DNA of 63,475 nucleotides, filler included, from Reclinomonas americana ATCC 50394 (lineage: Eukaryota), in assembly GCA_048213135.1 (NCBI GenBank). It is 14 parts of 14 records of this genome, joined end to end, with 100 filler letters (N's around TTAATTAATTAA, not from the genome) between each part and the next. Parts side by side here need not be neighbours in the genome. Positions count along the whole stretch, not along the records: positions 56,070 to 61,213 come from AFZH01023429.1; 13 more parts are not named here. One strand, given 5' to 3'. The notes under the pieces are model-generated. The model was not told where the DNA came from. It searched no databases and worked only from the letters and a program-made list of their open reading frames with translations. Each line of letters begins with the position of its first letter. The stretch's first letter is position 1. This document shows, one piece after another, positions 18,639 through 61,330 of the stretch. Made by a program: the position numbers and the translations under genes.

Positions 18639-21596
18639 TTATCGTTTCCGGAAGATCTTGCGTCGTTGTGAGCGGTACTCGAGTTCCTCGCGACTCATCA
18701 TGATGAAGATGGCGCGACGAATCGAGGCCTTGTTGAAGCCCATGGAGGACAGGAACTCGATGAGTGCTGTCTCCGGCATGGAGGCGTTGACAGCGAGGCG
18801 ACTGCGGATGCGCTCCTCCACCTGCTGCACCTCCGACATCATGTCGTCGGTCAGCGCCATCACGTCAATCATGCCCGACTTGGCGGTGTCGAGTGTCGCC
18901 GAGCGGAACAGCCGAATGGCCTGCGCCACCAAAAAAGGGACAGTCAGGAGGGTGGGCGGAAGACAAAGCTGCCAAGCAAAAAAAGAAAACGCAACTTCGG
19001 CGACGTGCTCGGCAGTGGCCACCGGTGACAGCGTCATCTTGGCCAGCGATTCAGAGATACGCACAATGGCCTCCAGCTGGCGCACGGTAATGGGAATGGC
19101 GGCCGTGCCGCTGCCTGCAGCAGCATCGCGCACGTCCTGTCGCATGGCCACATACTCGTTGCGCAGCGTGGCTGCGGCCTCCTCCGCCAAGCGTGGCGCG
19201 CACTTGCTGCACGTCGACACCAACAACATTCATCAGAGACATTTTCCAAACAAACAAAAAGCAAGGCAACACGAGCAAGACTCAACTGTCGGGCATAGGC
19301 AATGTAGCGTCGCAGCTCCTCCGAGTCGATTTCCGGCGCCGGACCCATGTTCGACGACGACACCTGCTGGTGAATGTGCAACACGTGCGTGGCAATGTGG
19401 CGATCCTTGGCCTCGTCGCGCACATCACGCACAATGAAAATCATGTCGAAACGCGACAAGATGGTGGTCTGGAAGTCGATTTGATCCGTGGCCGCCTGCG
19501 TGTCGTCGTACCTGCCGAACGAGGGATTGGCGGCGGCGAGGACGGCGGTTCGCGAGTTGAGCATGGTGGTGATGCCGGCCTTGGCAATCGAAATCGTCTG
19601 CTGCTCCATGGCCTCGTGAATGGCCACGCGGTCTTGCTCACGCATCTTGTCGAACTCGTCAATGCAGGCCACACCGCCGTCGGCCAGCACCATCGAACCG
19701 CCTTCCAGATAGAATTCGCCCTGTGTGCGCACACAAACATTCAGCACACTCAGGCAAATGATAGGAAGGGTGAGTAGTACTAACACTGCTGTCTCGAATG
19801 ACCGAGGCCGTCAGACCGGCAGCACTGCTGCCCTTGCCACTGGTGTACACGCCCACTGGCGCAATGCGCTGCGTGTACTTGAGCAGCTGCGACTTGCCAG
19901 CCGACGGATCGCCGAGCAGCAGGACATTAATGTCACCGCGGAGACGAGTGCCGTCGGGGAGACGCTTGGAGGAGCCACCAAACAGCAGGCAGGCAATGGC
20001 CTTCTTAATGTCCTCCAGACCGAAAATGGCCGGATCAATGCTGCGCGCAATCATGTCCTGCAAGTCGGGCATGCGCGAGATTTCCGCGTAGCGGCCCTCC
20101 TCCTCCGGATTGAACTGCACCGAGAAAAACAAAGGAGGTGGTGAGACGGGCAGCAATACAAAGGAAAGAAAGTGAGGCATGGGCGCACCAATTCGGCACC
20201 GTCGCCCGACGCCAACTCCAGACCGAGAAGACGCAAGTACGGATGCCGAATGCCGGCCGCACCCACGCCCGTGCGACCGCCGCTACCAAACTTTTGGTAG
20301 ATTGAGTGAATGCCCACCATGCGAACACGTGTGCCTGCGTCCATCGATCACCGTCAGCAAGAGGGCGAAGAGGGAAACAGTGATTGATTCTGCAAACGCA
20401 CCTGGAGCAACACGATCGCAGAGCGTTCGATCGGCCACGCACAGCACATGCCGTGGCATCTCACCCGTCGGCACATTCTCCGGCAGCTCCTGCACCTTCA
20501 GCACCTGCTGGTTGAGGAACGCCGATCGCTGCGGATCGATAATGTACGGATCGACCGGGCACGGCCGCGATCCATCCGGCTGTGCCTCGCTCATGCACTT
20601 GCGCGGCAGCGTCGCCGAACCCATACCCGGCGTCACCGAAATGTACGCCACATGCCCGCAGCTCGCGCACCGAATGCCCAGACGAGTAGCCTTGCACCTG
20701 CACACACACACAATCATCAATCACCGTCAGTCAAATCATCGCCCGTTCGGAAAAACCACCCGACTATCTCTCGCCTCGCCGCACCTCGTCTTGCTGGCAC
20801 TAATGACAATGCCACGCAGGGTGACCAGCTGCGAGATGCGCACCGACGAGAGCACACGCACACCGACCTCCGACGCCTGCCCGCGCAACAGCACCTGCAC
20901 CGGCACCGACAACGCCGGCACCAACTCCATCTCCGCCACCGCTCCCGCCGCCGGCCGCACATCCGTAAACTGAATCGCCTCGTGCGCCGCACTCTCAAAC
21001 TGCACAAGGAGGTTCCAGTCACAGTCGGAGATGGCATGTCACACACACTCAAGCAAACACGAACCGCTTGCATCAGCTGCGCTGGTCGCTCCATCAACGC
21101 ACCCGCCAGCTGCGCATCACAACATGTCACTGTGTGTGAGAGAGCAAGCACGACAATGCGTGTTTTTGTGATGTGCACACTCAACATCTGCATCGTACGA
21201 TCGCAAGTCGGCCAAGTCGACCACGATAAAGCGCAACGACGACGACGGCGCATGCACGGCCTCACGCAGCGCCACTCGATACGGGTACTCGACGCCACCT
21301 CCCGCCGCCACGTCGACATCGACCGCACCTCCCATTGCCGCCGCCGCGCCGCCCGCACCGGCCTTGGAGATGCTAAAGTGGCGCAGGAACTCAAAGAAGC
21401 GCCGCCGCGCCACGTCATTGGTGGCGAGGCCGGCGGCCACGATCGAGTCGTCGTCGCCTCCACCGCCAAAGCCCAGCAAGCCGGCGCCACCTGCTCCGCC
21501 CGCGAGCTGCGAGCCGTCACCGCTCAGGCGGCTGGCGGAGACAAGGCCCACGTCGTTGGCGTACACGGCGCCCACATCCCATCCCGCGCCCGCCAT
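18639..21596 (-). CDS. MCM5: DNA replication licensing factor MCM5 (multi-exon)
   Basis: N-terminus [98 protein letters not shown]. Confidence 0.96.
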
Positions 21597-50871: not shown

Positions 50872-52556
50872 TCATGCCTTGTAGGTCATCCAGTAGAGAA
50901 CCAGCAGCGCGACAAACATAAAGAGAATCAGGTAACACATGTGTTTCGACGACGCGGCCTTGGTGACCTCCTTCATGCGGTCCATGGTGCGCGACAGGAG
51001 ATTGGAGGTGTTGCCCATTTCATCTTGCTGTGTGGGGAGAAGGAGTGAGACAGAGAAAGGGGAGGAAGTGGAGATGTTAGAGGCACGCACCATGCCGTTC
51101 AGCAAGCTATTCTGTCGATCCACTTCTTCTGAGATGCCCTCGGCCACGGTGCGCAGCATTGCTGCGCCCTTGCCGAGGTCCACGATGTAGGTGTCGTTTT
51201 GGCGCTCCAGGAGGCCTGCGGGAAGGAGGGGAAGGATGTCAGGGAAGGGGAGGGCAAAGGGTGCGGAAGGGACGAACATTGGCGCAAGAGGGGGTGAGGA
51301 AGATGGAGTGCGCAGAACGTCGGCATTGGAGTGGAAATGCAAGACACAAGACGCACGATCATAGGGCAAGCGCGCAAGAAAGACGAGAGAGGGAGAAGAG
51401 ATCTCCAGCAAGGGAGAGAGCAGAGAATCATCTGCAGACTGAAACAACACGATGCGCGAACTGAAGAGAAGAGCTTGCGAAGAAGATACAACGCAAATCA
51501 AAGCGTACACAGGAAGCAAGCGCACAAGAGAATTCAGCGAGCCGATCCCAGGGAGGGGATGCGTGAACTGAAGGGGACAAGAACTGACGTAGGAGCAAAG
51601 GAAGCTTTCAGAGCAGTCGCAATACGAAAGGAGACGTAGCAAGAAACTCAAGATGAGAGGTGGAATGGTGGCATGCAAGCGACAATCTCACTCTGAGTCC
51701 TTGCCCTCTTGCTCTTCTTCCTCTCTATCTCTCTCCCTCAGAGAATCTGAGAGTGTCTTCGATCGTCTGTGTGCCTATCCCCGTTGCACCTCCTTGCGTT
51801 CAGCATCCTCCCACTCTGTCCTCTCTCTTCTTTCTTTTTCTCCCTCAGAGCACGCGAGTGTGTCTACGATCGTCTCTGTGCCTGTCCCCTTGCACCTCCT
51901 TACGTTCCTCATCCTCTCTTCTCTCTCTCTCTCTCTCTCTCTTCCTCTCTTCATTCTTTCTCTCACGCAGAGTAGACGAGTATGTCTACGATCGTCTCTG
52001 TGCCTGTCCCCTTGCACCTCCTTACGTTCCTCATCCTCTCTTCTCTCTCTTCTTCCTCTCTCTCTCTCAGAGTTCACGAGAATGTCTTCGATCGTCTCTG
52101 CGCCTGTCCCCGTTGCACCCCCTTCTGTTCCTCATCCTCTCTCTCACCCTCCCTCTCTCTCCCTCTCTTCTTTCTCTCTCGCAGAGTTCACGAGCACGTC
52201 TACGATCGTCTCTGCGCCTGTCCCCGTTGCACCTCCTTCTGTTCCTTATCCTCTCTCTCCTTCCCCCTCTCTCTCCCTCTCTTCTTTCTTTCTCAATCTC
52301 TGAAAACACGAGTGTGCCTACGATCGTCTCTGCGCCTCTCCCCATTCCCTCCCTCCTTCCCCTTTTCCCCCTCCTTCTCCCTCATCGCAACTCTCCGTCT
52401 CCATCTGCTGCTGCGATGCCGCCGCAGACAAGGCGCCTCCAGATGCCGACGCCGCCGCCTGTCGCCGCCCGCCCGCTCCCGGTGGACCCGAGAAGAGTCG
52501 GCTCTTGGGTGCCACTGCGCCGACGCCAGCAATGCTGGAGGAGAAACGGGAATCGC
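50872..52556 (-). CDS. BET1: BET1-like Qc-SNARE (5' part in gap)
   Basis: LLERQNDTYIVDL...ISEEVDRQNSLLNGM|QDEM..TSNLLSRTMDRM, followed by a C-terminal TM helix CYLILFMFVALLVLYW. Confidence 0.75.
51740..52345. repeat. Intronic tandem repeat, unit about 110-120 bp (ACGAG..TGTCTACGATCGTCTCTG.GCCTGTCCCC)
   Basis: About 6 copies separated by (CT)n. Confidence 0.85.
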
Positions 52557-56143: not shown

Positions 56144-56379
56144 GTCACACTGCCTTGTCTCAGTCTTCCTCTTATCTCTCTCAGTCACACAGCCTCGTCT
56201 CAGTCTTCCTCTTGTCTCTCACTCACACACTGCGTTGCCTCTCACTCACTCTCTCTCTCTCTCTCTCTCTCTCTCAGTCACGCTCATCACACTCGACGAT
56301 TGTGGCCTCGCGCACTGTGCAAGCTGCGGCTGCGGCACTGGTCGAGCTGGACGGCGACTCACAGCAGCAACAACAACAG

Positions 56380-58800
56380 ATGCAGATGCACGAGCAAGGG
56401 GATGAACACGTGGAGCGTCGTCGCAGGCATGATGTGTTTGGCGCGGATCCAGAGCTGGACTCGGACGGTGTGTGTTGTCTCCCTTCTCTCGCTTGTCTGC
56501 TTGCTTCTCTGTCTTCCGTCCTTGTTTCCTTTGCTGAGCTGCCTTCTCTTGCTGTCTCCGTCTCCCTCTCTCCTCCTTCTTTCGTGTCTGCTGCCTCGTG
56601 TCCATCTTCTGTCTTTGTTCTTCCTTATCTGGTGTATGCTTCTCAGTTTCTCACTCACCAGGCTTCCATGTTTCCTCCGTCCTCTACGTTCCACCCTCTC
56701 CCCTCTTCTCTTCGCTCTCTTGCTCATTTCTTCGCCTCTCCCCTCCACCATTCCTTGGCTTATCTCTCTCTCTCTTCCACAGGCGAGGCCGCGAGTGACG
56801 TTCCACTCGCCGATCGCGCCGTATCGCCACCCGTCGTGCTGCCGAGGAGGCACGGCTCGGTGGTGATCATGGGGCGACCGGTGACGCACACGGTGCCGGC
56901 GATGGAGGTGCGCGAGGTGAGTCCATGCGACAAGTGCACGCCGCGCGCCACAAACGAGCCTCACTGTGTCCGTGCTGCTGCAGCATGCTTCGATTGGCAG
57001 CTCGCTCAGCGACCCGTCGTCCATCGATGCCTCGGTGCTGACGTCGGCCAACTCGGCCACACGGCCGGCGATTGAGGAGGGTGGTGTGGATCAGGACGAT
57101 GATGAGGAACCGCTGGAGCCCATGTCGGGCGTGGTGGACATGACGAATGCGGGCGGCAAGTTTGCCGAGCGGGAACTGACGGCGGTGAGCACGCGCCACG
57201 TTTTTCACATGATGATGATGAGCATCTCACCTATTTTTCCTGACACAGACACGAAATGGGCACGGATCGGGTCTGCGGACAACCACCACAACCACGATTG
57301 CTTCCATGCTCACCGGCACATCGTCGGTGGCCACTCGCTTGTACTCGTTGCGTTGCTCACACGCAGGTTGTCTCTCTCTTTACCCGCTCCAGTCACCCTT
57401 GACCCCTCGCACAGCGGTGTAACCTACGACGGAGAGGTGTTGGATATTAGTGCGCTGGGTGTTCGTGAATGGCCGTGTCCACCCGACCAAGTCCGCTGTG
57501 CAAGAGTCTCCGATAGGTGTGCCGGCGGACTCTCTGTGCCTTTCTTCTCGTCTCTCAGTCACTCACTTTTGTGCGCGCCACACTCAGCTCGGGAATGTCG
57601 TTTGCGGACGACGTACCTCACGACCTCTCTGTTCTGCACGCACTGGGCACACGCATTCCTCTGTGTGTGGTGAAGAGGAGGAGACCAATCGAGGGCGGCA
57701 AGAAGGAGGTGTGTCACCTCCTTCCCTCACTCCACCGTCCCAAACACTCAATATTCTTCTCTCTCTCCTGCCAGCGCCCCGTGTTGGAGCTCATGCTGCC
57801 GTATGCGTGGAACGGACAACCGGAAGATGTGGTGTGCTGTCGAATGAAGCGGAACGCGCGTGTGGTGCGCTTCTCCACCAACCCGGAGAAGCTGGAGAAG
57901 CGTCGCAACCCGGCCTACAAGGGCAAGCTGTCGTTTTCGCCACTTGCCGTCGCGGCCGAGTCTGGAGTGGAGACGCCACCGCCGCGCCTGTCGGTTGAGG
58001 GTGCCACAGCTTCGAGCCGCCTTGGTGGAGGCGCGAGCGGCACTCGCCATCTCTCCTCGGACTACCTGCTGGATCTGTCGGGTCTCGGCAGGAAACGCAA
58101 CGCCAGCCTGCCCGACGATGGTCTCATGGCACGAGCGACACTCGTGTCGAGTGGCAGTGTGGGTGTGGCTGGTACGAGTGACACCCTGGCCGTACCGGGC
58201 GCCGGCTCAACTCCCAGTGGCGGCGCGACGCCCCGTGAGAGCAGTCCACGGCCGGGCTCGGCGGATCCATTCGGTTGCTTCACGCTGCACGACGCGCAAG
58301 ATCACGTGCTGCTGACGGGTGTGATTGATCGACAAAAAGGCACCATGACGGTGGAGTTTACGCACCCCGTTCTCACGTGCAACCGATTAGAGCATGGTGA
58401 GTGTGTCTTTTCTCGCGCAACGTGAGTTGTGATCTCATTTTTCCCACTCGCTACAGGCGCTGGTGGACGGTGCCTGACGGGCGAGTTGGGCGCGCATGTG
58501 GGACCACTGCTGAATCTGTCGGTGCGAGTCAGCAAGCGATCAGTGCTGCGCGTGTTCCGTGGTGGTGAGATCATTATCCTCCCTTGTGCCCTCCTTTCCC
58601 TCCACGTGCTCATCATCCCCCCAGCCGACTGGTCCTCGGCCGACACACTGCACGCGTCGTCACGTTCCGCGTCGGCGGCGAGTACCGAAGACCCGTCGAG
58701 CAGCGTGCTCTTGCAACTGGATTACCCTCTGTCTGTGTTTACTGCGTTTGCACTGTGGGCGGCCTTGGAGGCACCACGGTTACAGGCGGCAGACTCATGA
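56380..58800 (+). CDS. Divergent tubby-like (TULP) protein, multi-exon
   Basis: VVCCRMKR...FSTNPEKLEKRRNPAYKGKL resembles tubby IS.DP.DLSR....YIGKL. C-terminal LDYPLSVFTAFALWAALEAPRL resembles tubby DY.YPL.ALQAFAI.LSSF..KL. Confidence 0.5.
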
Positions 58801-58829: not shown

Positions 58830-60600
58830 TTAGCGAATCATGTTGAGTCCGCGGCGAGAGAGCGTGCCAAAATGCTCAATCAGCTCGTGTTCGCGACGCT
58901 CAAGCGCCTCCTGGTCGCCAACCGCGTCCATCACAAACAACATTCTGTATGCCAATAAGTGAGGAAGAGGAAATAAGAATGAGAAGAATCGCAGAGAGAC
59001 GCAACGAGGAGCGTGTGCCGAGCGCATGACTGCCGAGGGAGGCCAGCACTGCATCGCACAGGCTCGGCAGGCCCGAGCTCCAGCTGTGGTTGCGTGCATT
59101 TCTCAGCGCCCCTCGCGCGTCGCTGAGATGCATGTTCCAGCGCTCGCACGCCGAGTTGCTCGCCAGTCCCACGTACCCCTGATCAGGCTCTGCCTCGTCG
59201 TGCACATCCCACACCACCCAATAGTACACCGCAAACGGGTCGGTCACCGCCGGCATGTCGCTCCACGAGACCGCCGCGTCCACCCGTCCGCGCAAGAAGC
59301 GCACAGCCGCACGAAAGTGCGACGACCGCGTCCACCACAACTCGATCTCCTCGGCCGTCAGCTCGCCCGTCACCTGCCCCCGTCGCGCCAAACTGTGATA
59401 GTGCACGCCCACGGGCGCACTATCATCGCCGCCCACCCCAAACTCAATCGCATGCACCACGCGGAACTCGCGCAGGTCCGGATCAAACACCGGCTCGGCT
59501 CCGTCGACCAGTCGCTCTAGCAGCAACACGCGCTCGCGTCGACGCTCCGCAGCCTGCGCATAGCTCGCCTTGGCGTCCAGTCCCGGTGTCGGAAGGGCGA
59601 GCTCCACCTCGGAAGAAGGCGGTGCAGCAGCAGCCGACGTGGCCAGTGTATGAAACCCGCGACCGCGCCCAGGACCGCGCACCGTGCCTAGCGTCGGTGG
59701 AGGAGGAGGCGCATGCAAGCAGCTGCGCCACGTATGCCCCGGCTGCTTGCACGTTGTGCACAGACGCGGACTTCGTGATCGTTGTCGCGTCTCATCGTCC
59801 GCCTCGCCATCGCGCGGCGGCACACGCGGGGAGGGCGGTCCGAGTCGCCCACTGCGGTCCTCCACAGCCGGGCGCGCAGGGCATGTGCGACTGTTGTGCC
59901 CTGGAAGCTTGCATGTTCGACAAAGGCGCGGACTTGGCGGGCCTCCGCGTCTGCAGACTTCCTGCTCGCCCTCACTGCTGCTGCTGCTCTCGGCCTCCAC
60001 TGGTCGCGCAGGGCATGTGCGACTGTTGTGCCCAGGCTGCTTGCACGTTCTGCACAGTCGCGGACTGGGCGGACCTCCTCGCCTGCTGCCTTCCTGCTCG
60101 CCTTCACTGCTGCTGCTCTCGGCCTCCACTTGCACAGTCCGCGCAGGGCATGTCCGACTGTTGTGTCCAGGCTGCTTGCATGTTCGACAAAGGCGCGGAC
60201 TTGGCGGACCTCCTCGTCTGCCTTCTTGCTCGCCTTCACTGTTGCTGCTGCTCTCGGCCTCCACTGGTCGCGCAGGGCATGTCCGACAGTTGTGTCCAGG
60301 CTGCTTGCAGGTTCTGCAAAGGCGTGGACTGGGCGGACCTGCACGTCGTCTGCCTTCCTGCTCGCCCTCACTGCTGCTGTTGGCCTCCACTGGGCGAGCT
60401 GCACATGTGCGACTGTTGTGCCCAGGCTGCTTGCATGTTCTGCACAGTCGCGGACTATGCCTTCTCCTGTCTTCCTCACTGCTGCTCTCTGCACTACTGC
60501 TGCTGCTACTGTCCGCCTCCTCAACTCGACCGGCACATGTTCGCCGATTGTGCCCCGGTTGCCCACACAAACGACACACGCGGACTCTCACAGTCGCACC
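58830..60600 (-). CDS. 7x CCHC zinc-knuckle plus GIY-YIG endonuclease (intron 59005-58945; upstream exon(s) uncertain)
   Basis: Seven CxxCxxxGHxxxxC motifs; AVYY...YVGLAS...ERWNMH; after a 61-nt phase-2 intron, LERREHELIEHFGTLSRRGLN supplies the conserved E and N. Confidence 0.82.
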
Positions 60601-61330
60601 TGTGTGGCACACACACAGAGAGAGAGAAGAGAGAGTGAGTGAAAGAGAGGAGAGTGAAAAGTGAGTGAGAGAGAGCGCGCGCAGTTGTGGTCACGTTAAC
60701 GAGCACACAAAGAGTGCAGTGGATACGCAAGTGCAACAACAGGTGCAAGAGAGACAGAAACAAGTTGATCTTCTCTCGCGCAACTCATTGAAATATCAGT
60801 CGAAATTTCCACGCAAGGAGTCGGTATCTCACGCGCCTCTTGCGAGTGATTGTTGCACGTCTCACAAAGAGAGGCACTCACACACACGCGCGCGCCACAC
60901 ACACAGAGAGTGAGAGAGTCGCAGGCGCGTATTGACCCGAGCGCAAAGTGTGTGTTTTTGCTCGGCCATTTTCCACTTTTTTGTGCACTCGCTCTCCCTG
61001 CGTGAGACAGAGAGTGTTGTGTGAGAGAGTGTGTCTTGTGTGAGAGAATGAGCTTGGAGGATGATGATGGGTGGGAGTGCATGACGACTTCGAGCCTGTT
61101 TGCTGTTCCATTGCCTGTACGAGGTGACGCCATTCCGCAAGTGTGTCTCTCTCTGTCTCTGTGTGTGTGTCTCTCTCACTCTCTTCTTTTTCTTCTCTCT
61201 CTCTCTCTCTATTNNNNNNNNNNNNNNNNNNNNNNNNNNNNNNNNNNNNNNNNNNNNTTAATTAATTAANNNNNNNNNNNNNNNNNNNNNNNNNNNNNNN
61301 NNNNNNNNNNNNNTCGCTCTGCCTGTATCG

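What the first reader, a model, noticed from the sequence alone, without database searches (positions are those of the whole stretch)
58830..60600. Stand-alone nuclease: seven tandem CCHC zinc knuckles fused to a GIY-YIG domain completed by a cryptic intron
Seen: seven CxxC(K/G)(Q/L)PGHxxxxC knuckles, most in recently amplified units of about 125-135 bp with acidic/Ser linkers, followed by VYY...YVG...RW..H. The raw ORF ends in non-conserved sequence. Removing intron 59005-58945 gives ...MLFVMDAVGDQEALERREHELIEHFGTLSRRGLN, the canonical GIY-YIG E...I...T...GLN end. Established: cellular eukaryotic GIY-YIG proteins (SLX1, ANKLE1, MSH1) and Penelope endonucleases have other architectures. Inference: a domesticated mobile-element nuclease or a defence nuclease with a modular, expandable nucleic-acid-binding array.
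Basis: partly seen in the sequence, partly recalled or inferred. Interest (0 to 1): 0.72.

Follow-up and report, generated by a model that had tools for sequence, protein, structure and literature searches.

The report
Zinc-knuckle array fused to GIY-YIG nuclease
A single spliced gene of a protist-like eukaryote joins a variable-length row of zinc knuckles to a DNA-cutting domain of the viral homing-endonuclease type; it looks like a tamed, working nuclease, and is an unusual arrangement of familiar parts.

Summary
Seven CX2CX4HX4C knuckles lie in one frame. The GIY-YIG domain is real but divergent. Pfam misses it, yet a profile of 37 I-TevI-type viral domains scores it 28.5-32.9 bits spliced versus 20.9 unspliced. 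A profile of only the C-terminal half ranks the terminal exon first of 1304 six-frame segments. A second haplotype supports splicing: 4 of 4 terminal-exon differences are silent only in the spliced frame, and pN/pS is about 0.07. That haplotype has five knuckles, so array length is polymorphic. Refinements: a second in-frame donor (59059) cannot be excluded; the start codon needs an upstream exon; about 120 aa between array and nuclease are unassigned. The gene is single-locus, lies between host genes and shows no terminal repeats or reverse transcriptase. GIY-YIG plus CCHC knuckles is not new: 52 of 77 giant-virus-type proteins of another subfamily carry 1-3 C-terminal knuckles, and plant ET proteins pair GIY-YIG with variable zinc repeats. 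The scan already noted this gene, apparently on the other haplotype (e1-7451718). Verdict: new variant of a known kind, most likely a domesticated tethered nuclease; expression and activity untested.

The parts
60785..60788 (-). Candidate first coding micro-exon (ATG plus one base); one of several in-frame options, unproven
   Evidence: One search lists in-frame ATG/donor pairs. This one has a GTTGCG donor, gives a 184-nt intron and is identical in the second haplotype. Inference only.
60601..60784 (-). Putative 5' intron ending in a CT-rich tract and CAG acceptor at 60601
   Evidence: Sequence; acceptor kept in the second haplotype; no Met upstream of the knuckles in the raw ORF
59719..60576 (-). 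Array of seven CX2CX4HX4C zinc knuckles (GHNxRTC subtype) with Ser/acidic and Arg/Pro linkers; five in the other haplotype
   Evidence: two in-frame 129-nt indels and one 6-nt indel between haplotypes
59602..59718 (-). Pro/Gly/Ala-rich linker
   Evidence: Translation
59242..59601 (-). Unassigned conserved region of about 120 aa (helix, strands, helices) between array and nuclease
   Evidence: 7 silent versus 2 replacement differences; no Pfam, PHROG or NCBIfam hit; low-confidence models
59006..59241 (-). N-terminal part of the GIY-YIG domain: Tyr 59226 or 59223, YVG at 59175-59167, Arg 59142, His 59130
   Evidence: (hhalign probability 93); atlas top hit GIY-YIG 0.88, a lead only
58945..59005 (-). 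Intron (61 nt, donor GTTGCGT); alternative donor at 59059 (GTGCGA) would give 115 nt
58830..58944 (-). Terminal exon with metal-binding Glu (58892), conserved Asn (58844) and stop
   Evidence: Top of 1304 segments with the C-half profile, 0 of 2000 shuffles as high; 4 of 4 allelic differences silent

Best explanation
A single-locus, intron-containing host gene that arose by capture of a homing-endonuclease-type (I-TevI / Tlr8p / virus-like) GIY-YIG domain and its fusion behind a tandem zinc-knuckle array. It is now kept by purifying selection. Proposed mechanism: the near-identical knuckles bind nucleic acid, probably single-stranded or distorted, with low specificity and high avidity. They hold the weakly binding GIY-YIG domain on its substrate through a flexible linker. 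The single one-metal active site (Tyr, Arg, His, Glu, Asn) then nicks DNA, as in other tethered GIY-YIG enzymes. The most likely job is processing structured or damaged DNA in the host's own genome. Shown: sequence, residues, selection, single locus, repeat-number polymorphism. Inferred: splicing (strongly), nuclease activity, what the knuckles bind, and the cellular role.
For: The catalytic-site residues (the four named essential for I-BmoI in PMC2853131, plus the His) are present and identical in both haplotypes. Profile of 37 viral I-TevI-type domains: 28.5 or 32.9 bits spliced, 20.9 unspliced; that family's nearest solved structure is I-TevI, 1mk0/1ln0. The C-half profile, independent of the selecting pattern, gives the terminal exon 14.8 bits, versus 5.5 and -2.3 for two other viral subfamilies. 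Middle region plus nuclease: 18 silent and 4 replacement differences, pN/pS 0.07, p 3e-8. One locus per haplotype, with three consecutive contigs doubled at 93-97% identity. Neighbouring host gene stops 29 nt away. No terminal repeats. Host-like GC3, 143 of 180 codons. Tethering by separate binding domains is the rule for GIY-YIG domains (PMC3664794 Introduction).
Against: No transcript or activity data. No orthologue found: phmmer of 1.84 billion representatives gave one spurious hit, and word searches gave nothing for the nuclease region and only a knuckle-only Dunaliella protein for the whole ORF. A housekeeping repair role would more often be shared across lineages. The domain is below Pfam detection and has insertions: 15-16 residues between the two Tyr motifs against about 10 in the family, and His-to-Glu spacing 59 with the 59005 donor against 40-52. 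Slightly more replacement change than two neighbours (4 of 534 sites versus 0 of 454 and 0 of 455). N-half profile scores are inflated because that family was selected with motifs from the query. Tree position is unresolved on a long branch.
Confidence: 0.5

Rival explanations
1. The same active nuclease is used in conflict: the knuckle array recognises invading nucleic acid (viral DNA, retroelement intermediates) and the GIY-YIG domain cuts it; repeat number tunes avidity.
For: Lineage-restricted; repeat number differs between haplotypes; low-GC virus-like contigs with related GIY-YIG genes (L018-L021, GC 0.29-0.31) and many reverse transcriptases are in the same assembly; unchecked scan notes report other orphan GIY-YIG genes in this genome.
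Against: Single locus rather than an expanded family; strong purifying selection; the central knuckles are homogenised, not diversified; neighbours are ordinary host genes.
Confidence: 0.27
2. A still-selfish free-standing homing endonuclease, or the remnant ORF of a transposon (Penelope-like or DNA transposon), kept by its own spread.
For: The nuclease is of the homing-endonuclease type. The same knuckle subtype occurs on DDE transposases (3 of 82 ORFs) and at the end of one viral homing-type GIY-YIG ORF, L372.
Against: Both haplotypes carry the gene at about 10% silent divergence, so there is no empty site. One locus only. No terminal repeats. This contig and its haplotype are not among 23 reverse-transcriptase matches. 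Only 29 nt to the next gene's stop. No Cys pair between the two Tyr motifs as in canonical Penelope elements (PMC8557442).
Confidence: 0.1
3. The intron is not spliced or the domain is dead, and the product is mainly a knuckle-array nucleic-acid-binding protein.
For: Pfam, PHROG and NCBIfam do not detect the domain. The 59005 donor lacks the usual +5 G. Knuckle-only arrays of the same subtype exist as complete-looking ORFs: 36 of 232 have four or more knuckles, and those with visible record titles are mostly Poseidoniales; also Dunaliella P0004.
Against: 4 of 4 terminal-exon differences are silent in the spliced frame (p 0.002) and 0 of 4 in the other frames, and the unspliced stop is not conserved. 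The same GTTGCGT donor opens a 75-nt intron in the window's MCM5-like gene. All catalytic residues are kept.
Confidence: 0.13

Closest known systems
I-TevI / I-BmoI-type GIY-YIG homing endonucleases and their free-standing viral relatives (HE_Tlr8p_PBC-V_like group)
   Same: Best-scoring nuclease subfamily of those tested (28-33 bits against 4-5 for two other viral subfamilies); same Tyr, Arg, His, Glu, Asn set; nuclease tethered to separate binding modules (PMC3664794)
   Different: Nuclease is C-terminal, not N-terminal; no NUMOD or HTH; binding part is a CCHC array (0 of 39 such viral loci had a knuckle within the 1 kb held; one example, L372, found by another scan); nuclear, spliced, no empty allele
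Giant-virus-type GIY-YIG plus CCHC proteins (the NVRGG-motif family)
   Same: GIY-YIG and CX2CX4HX4C knuckles in one polypeptide (52 of 77 ORFs)
   Different: Different nuclease subfamily (4-5 bits); 1-3 knuckles, always C-terminal and gag-like (GHF/GHY); proteins about 150-260 aa in the examples printed. Convergent fusion.
Viral SLX1-like GIY-YIG proteins with one N-terminal GHNxRTC knuckle (L369, L380, L401, L541)
   Same: Same knuckle subtype and same domain order
   Different: One knuckle; SLX1-type nuclease, which forms a separate supported branch; no middle domain
Plant EFFECTOR OF TRANSCRIPTION (ET/HRT) proteins
   Same: Domesticated cellular GIY-YIG nickase with a variable number of tandem zinc- and DNA-binding repeats (PMC6585611 passages): the best 'works like' model
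   Different: ET repeats are another Cys/His motif and lie C-terminal; plant-specific; no sequence link tested or found here
Penelope-like retroelement endonucleases (including Chlamys)
   Same: GIY-YIG of the homing-related cluster; one Chlamys type has an upstream zf-CCHC ORF (PMC8557442)
   Different: No reverse transcriptase, no internal CCHH motif, single locus, purifying selection

Membership tests
GIY-YIG nuclease superfamily | GIY and YIG motifs on an N-terminal hairpin | tested here: met
   YVG aligns to YIG. The first Tyr (59226 or 59223) is present but 15-16 residues upstream and outside the aligned stretch of the profile, so its register is unsure.
GIY-YIG nuclease superfamily | Arg and His on helix 1 | tested here: met
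   Arg 59142 and His 59130 in both haplotypes; the comparison family was selected on this motif
GIY-YIG nuclease superfamily | Metal-binding Glu and C-terminal Asn at correct spacing | tested here: met
   Glu 58892 and Asn 58844, spacing 16 (family median 16, range 12-20); C-half profile top of 1304 segments, 0 of 2000 shuffles; requires splicing
GIY-YIG nuclease superfamily | Pfam PF01541 above cut-off | tested here: inconclusive
   No hit for the separate exon pieces and the locus is absent from the genome search; the spliced whole was not scanned against Pfam
GIY-YIG nuclease superfamily | Alpha/beta fold and metal-dependent cleavage | not testable with these tools
   Single-sequence models of exon pieces had pLDDT 42-46; no assay
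GIY-YIG homing endonucleases (I-TevI type) | N-terminal nuclease plus C-terminal NUMOD/HTH binding domain | tested here: not met
   Nuclease ends the protein, with the stop three codons after the Asn
GIY-YIG homing endonucleases (I-TevI type) | Mobility into an empty allele | tested here: inconclusive
   Both haplotypes of this assembly carry the gene; other isolates unavailable
Penelope-like elements | Reverse transcriptase in the same or an adjacent ORF | tested here: not met
   No room or ORF beside the gene; contigs absent from 23 RVT_1 matches, which are a lower bound
Penelope-like elements | CCHH motif with two Cys between GIY and YIG (absent in Chlamys and Hydra) | tested here: not met
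   No Cys between the Tyr motifs (PMC8557442)
DNA transposon ORF | Terminal inverted repeats, target-site duplication, dispersed copies | tested here: not met
   Only microsatellite-type inverted repeats on the contig; two allelic loci only
Giant-virus NVRGG GIY-YIG/CCHC family | NVRGG-ended nuclease with C-terminal knuckles | tested here: not met
   3.9-4.5 bits; terminal exon -2.3 bits; opposite domain order
Plant ET/HRT proteins | ET repeats C-terminal to an ET-type GIY-YIG | not tested
   No ET sequence was compared; domain order differs per PMC6585611
CCHC zinc knuckle | CX2CX4HX4C spacing | tested here: met
   7 of 7 motifs; PF13696 70 bits over a cut-off of 27

The most novel reading that the evidence does not exclude
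A eukaryote has turned a viral homing-type nuclease into a host genome-surveillance or defence enzyme whose targeting module is a tandem zinc-knuckle array that gains and loses whole units between alleles. Repeat number would tune binding in natural populations, making it a length-polymorphic, repeat-guided nuclease arisen independently of plant ET proteins, with a new 120-aa accessory domain.
Probability: 0.15. Interest if true: 0.68.

Novelty: new variant of a known kind. Interest (0 to 1): 0.36.

Why it matters
Few cellular eukaryotic GIY-YIG families are described (SLX1, ANKLE1-type, MSH1 and Penelope in PMC1564403 Table 1; ET in PMC6585611). This would add an independent domestication of a homing-type nuclease, complete with spliceosomal introns and measurable purifying selection. 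It would also be a natural case of GIY-YIG tethered by a repeat array whose length varies between alleles. It is directly testable by RT-PCR and by an assay of the 5- versus 7-knuckle alleles. Its reach is limited because it is confined to one genome so far, and knuckle-GIY-YIG fusions have arisen several times in viruses.

Tried and rejected
No RNA holder was listed; this says nothing about expression. Homolog searches gave nothing for the nuclease or middle region; none of 8000 candidates, lengths 311-991 only; one repetitive spurious hit; only a knuckle-only protein; 2 viral and 3 metagenome loci; the two metagenome matches read (L024, L026) are chance word matches, and the long ORFs of the two viral loci show nothing related. 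PDB sequence search: 0. A chromodomain-like reading of the middle region, seen by eye, was not supported: the locus is not among 19 PF00385 matches and Pfam gave no hit. The atlas hit to FAD-oxidase_C (0.90, 122 shared features) was treated as chance. The 503-aa antisense ORF (59127-60638, + strand) was rejected: 2 silent versus 21 replacement codons, against 16 versus 8 in the gene frame. A search of the own genome with one viral homing-type protein found nothing (not found with this query). The tree placed the query on a long branch with no supported group (46 rows, random subsets of 18, 8 and 10 from the three viral sets). Literature: searches for GIY-YIG with 'zinc knuckle' (5 papers) or 'CCHC' (6 papers) and searches listed no paper on this architecture in a nuclear gene, judged from listings and the passages read. 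The library lacks most subscription papers and no supplements were read, so domain-architecture tables there could hold it.

Full report
Observation. The minus-strand frame 60690-58900 holds seven CX2CX4HX4C motifs at 60576, 60444, 60318, 60189, 60054, 59922 and 59760. They sit inside a 132-nt tandem array of 4.5 copies with 83% matches, and Pfam zf-CCHC_2 scores 70 bits. A Pro-rich linker and about 120 unassigned residues follow, then YVG, Arg and His motifs. The stretch 59005-58945 is GT..AG, 61 nt and 74% pyrimidine, with GC 0.43 against 0.56-0.69 on either side. Removing it joins the frame with Glu 58892, Asn 58844 and stop 58832.

A second haplotype as a natural control. Searches of the own genome with the nuclease region, the array and the terminal exon each returned only this contig and C8146. 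C8146 is collinear over the whole 5-kb contig, with 153 mismatches in 4794 aligned bases. The window's contigs on either side also have partners, C8144 and C8148, and unrelated genes occur in near-identical pairs too. I read it as the other allele; a large segmental duplication is not excluded. In the terminal exon 4 of 4 differences are silent in the spliced frame and 0 of 4 in either other frame, and the unspliced stop is lost (p about 0.002). Over the middle region and nuclease there are 18 silent and 4 replacement differences, pN/pS 0.07, p 3e-8, counting one two-base codon change as one of each. Two neighbouring genes show 14/0 and 8/0. The allele has five knuckles, through two separate in-frame 129-nt differences. 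I could not check reads, so assembly collapse remains possible.

Is it GIY-YIG? Pfam, PHROGs and NCBIfam do not detect the separate exon pieces; the atlas gave a GIY-YIG cluster as a lead (0.88). I therefore gathered viral domains by pattern (11 and 39 loci; 39 distinct ORFs, 2 short ones dropped, 37 used). Four tested members are Pfam GIY-YIG, and an alignment of 30 finds I-TevI as nearest solved structure. This profile scores the spliced domain 28.5 bits and the unspliced 20.9. The family was chosen on N-half motifs resembling the query, so the fair test is the C-half profile. It ranks the terminal exon first of 1304 six-frame segments of the window (13.0 bits, next 5.6), and 0 of 2000 shuffles reach its score. 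The Glu-to-Asn spacing is 16, the family median. Two other viral subfamilies score 4-5 bits, and their C-halves 5.5 and -2.3 against 14.8. The residues named essential in I-BmoI (PMC2853131 passages) are present in both haplotypes. The first Tyr lies 5-6 residues further upstream than usual. A tree left the query on a long, unsupported branch among homing-type rows.

Which donor? One search found three in-frame donors besides 59005 for the 58945 acceptor; only 59059 keeps the Arg and His. It scores higher (32.9 bits) and gives His-to-Glu spacing 41, inside the family range 40-52, whereas 59005 gives 59. It also has the +5 G seen in most donors I read by eye. For 59005: the 54 nt between the donors are exon-like (GC 0.69, GC3 12 of 17), and 3 of their 4 allelic differences fall on third positions. 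They also encode a helix that aligns to the family's conserved L..AI helix. Both donor words have precedent in the window: GTGCGA at 25599 in a Rab-like gene and GTTGCGT at 18995 in an MCM5-like gene (gene names recalled from motifs). I favour 59005 at roughly 60:40; either gives a full active site. The start is open: the raw ORF has no Met before the array, and an ATG micro-exon at 60788-60785 is the neatest of several options.

Context. A conserved spliced gene ends head-on 29 nt from the stop, and a MORN-repeat gene lies on the other side. There are no terminal repeats beyond microsatellites, and neither contig is among 23 reverse-transcriptase matches (a lower bound). The assembly also holds bacterial contigs and low-GC virus-like contigs with GIY-YIG genes. 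One of the latter, L020, scores 49.8 bits on the same profile, so potential donors of this type coexist with the host; this does not show descent.

Relatives and precedent. No orthologue was found. The parts recur elsewhere. The GHNxRTC knuckle subtype was found in 232 distinct viral and prokaryotic ORFs (both scans capped). Five carry GIY-YIG: L401, L541 and L372 by my profiles, and L369, L380 and L401 by Pfam. L372 is homing-type with the knuckle at its end. Among the 82 of 232 sent to Pfam, 9 had RING, 6 DUF4012, 3 DDE transposase, 3 GIY-YIG and 2 DEDD exonuclease domains. Thirty-six of 232 had four or more knuckles and no GIY-YIG hit; those with visible titles are mostly Poseidoniales. Plant ET proteins combine a nicking GIY-YIG domain with a variable number of zinc repeats (PMC6585611, passages). 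The superfamily table of PMC1564403 (passages) lists no knuckle-array fusion. Other papers seen as passages: PMC8557442, PMC5906684 (not relevant), PMC8263062. PMC3664794 was read in its Introduction. The rest were seen only as search listings.

Mechanism. GIY-YIG domains bind DNA weakly, rely on separate anchors, and nick with one metal (PMC3664794). I infer that the basic, near-identical knuckles give avid, low-specificity binding. That CCHC knuckles favour single-stranded nucleic acid is recalled knowledge. The Ser/acidic linkers could be phosphorylation sites (inference). Identical central knuckles argue for tuning of avidity rather than a recognition code. I put a host DNA-processing role at 0.5, defence at 0.27, a dead or unspliced product at 0.13 and a selfish element at 0.1.

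Verdict. A real, selected, spliced gene with an unusual but convergent architecture: new variant of a known kind, interest 0.36. The scan had already reported a five-knuckle form in this genome (e1-7451718), which matches the haplotype analysed here. New here are the allele comparison, the donor ambiguity and the survey of knuckle partners.

Noticed in passing
window 693-5048 (-) and 32381-36736 (+): Two paralogous 1451-aa intronless ORFs with a P-loop NTPase motif and long 126-bp WD40-like repeat arrays (about 13 copies), resembling STAND/NWD immune-type receptors (label recalled).
   Followed up: no
window 37889-38280, 46681-47830, 49173-49714, 51808-52343: Tandem repeats of 112-416 bp that look like duplicated exon-plus-intron units, some around 9-nt micro-exons; real or assembly artefact unknown.
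   Followed up: no
window 18995, 59005, 60784: A recurrent GTTGCG splice-donor word lacking +5 G, used in the MCM5-like gene.
   Followed up: partly
L033 / L034, DEAD-box helicase intron: One haplotype has a GT donor and the other a GC donor at the same intron.
   Followed up: no
L018-L021 (G000 C13305, C12602, C518, C10200): Low-GC (0.29-0.31) virus-like contigs with GIY-YIG ORFs in a 56% GC assembly.
   Followed up: partly
L010-L015 (G000 C1, C2, C8160): Bacterial contigs are co-assembled with the eukaryote, including UvrC-like genes.
   Followed up: no
L457, L459, L460, L466, L471 and about 30 more: Poseidoniales (Marine Group II archaea) encode small basic proteins made almost only of 4-7 tandem GHNxRTC knuckles.
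   Followed up: partly
L372:745-1569: Viral homing-type GIY-YIG ORF with repeated basic motifs and a C-terminal GHNxRTC knuckle.
   Followed up: partly
window 56300-58800 (+): Conserved spliced neighbour gene (14 silent, 0 replacement differences in one exon) that looks Tubby-like by eye but has no relevant Pfam hit.
   Followed up: partly
L035 (G000 C8:36528-39575): ORF with two gag-like knuckles followed by a YqaJ-like motif (recalled), probably the transposon of an earlier scan note.
   Followed up: no
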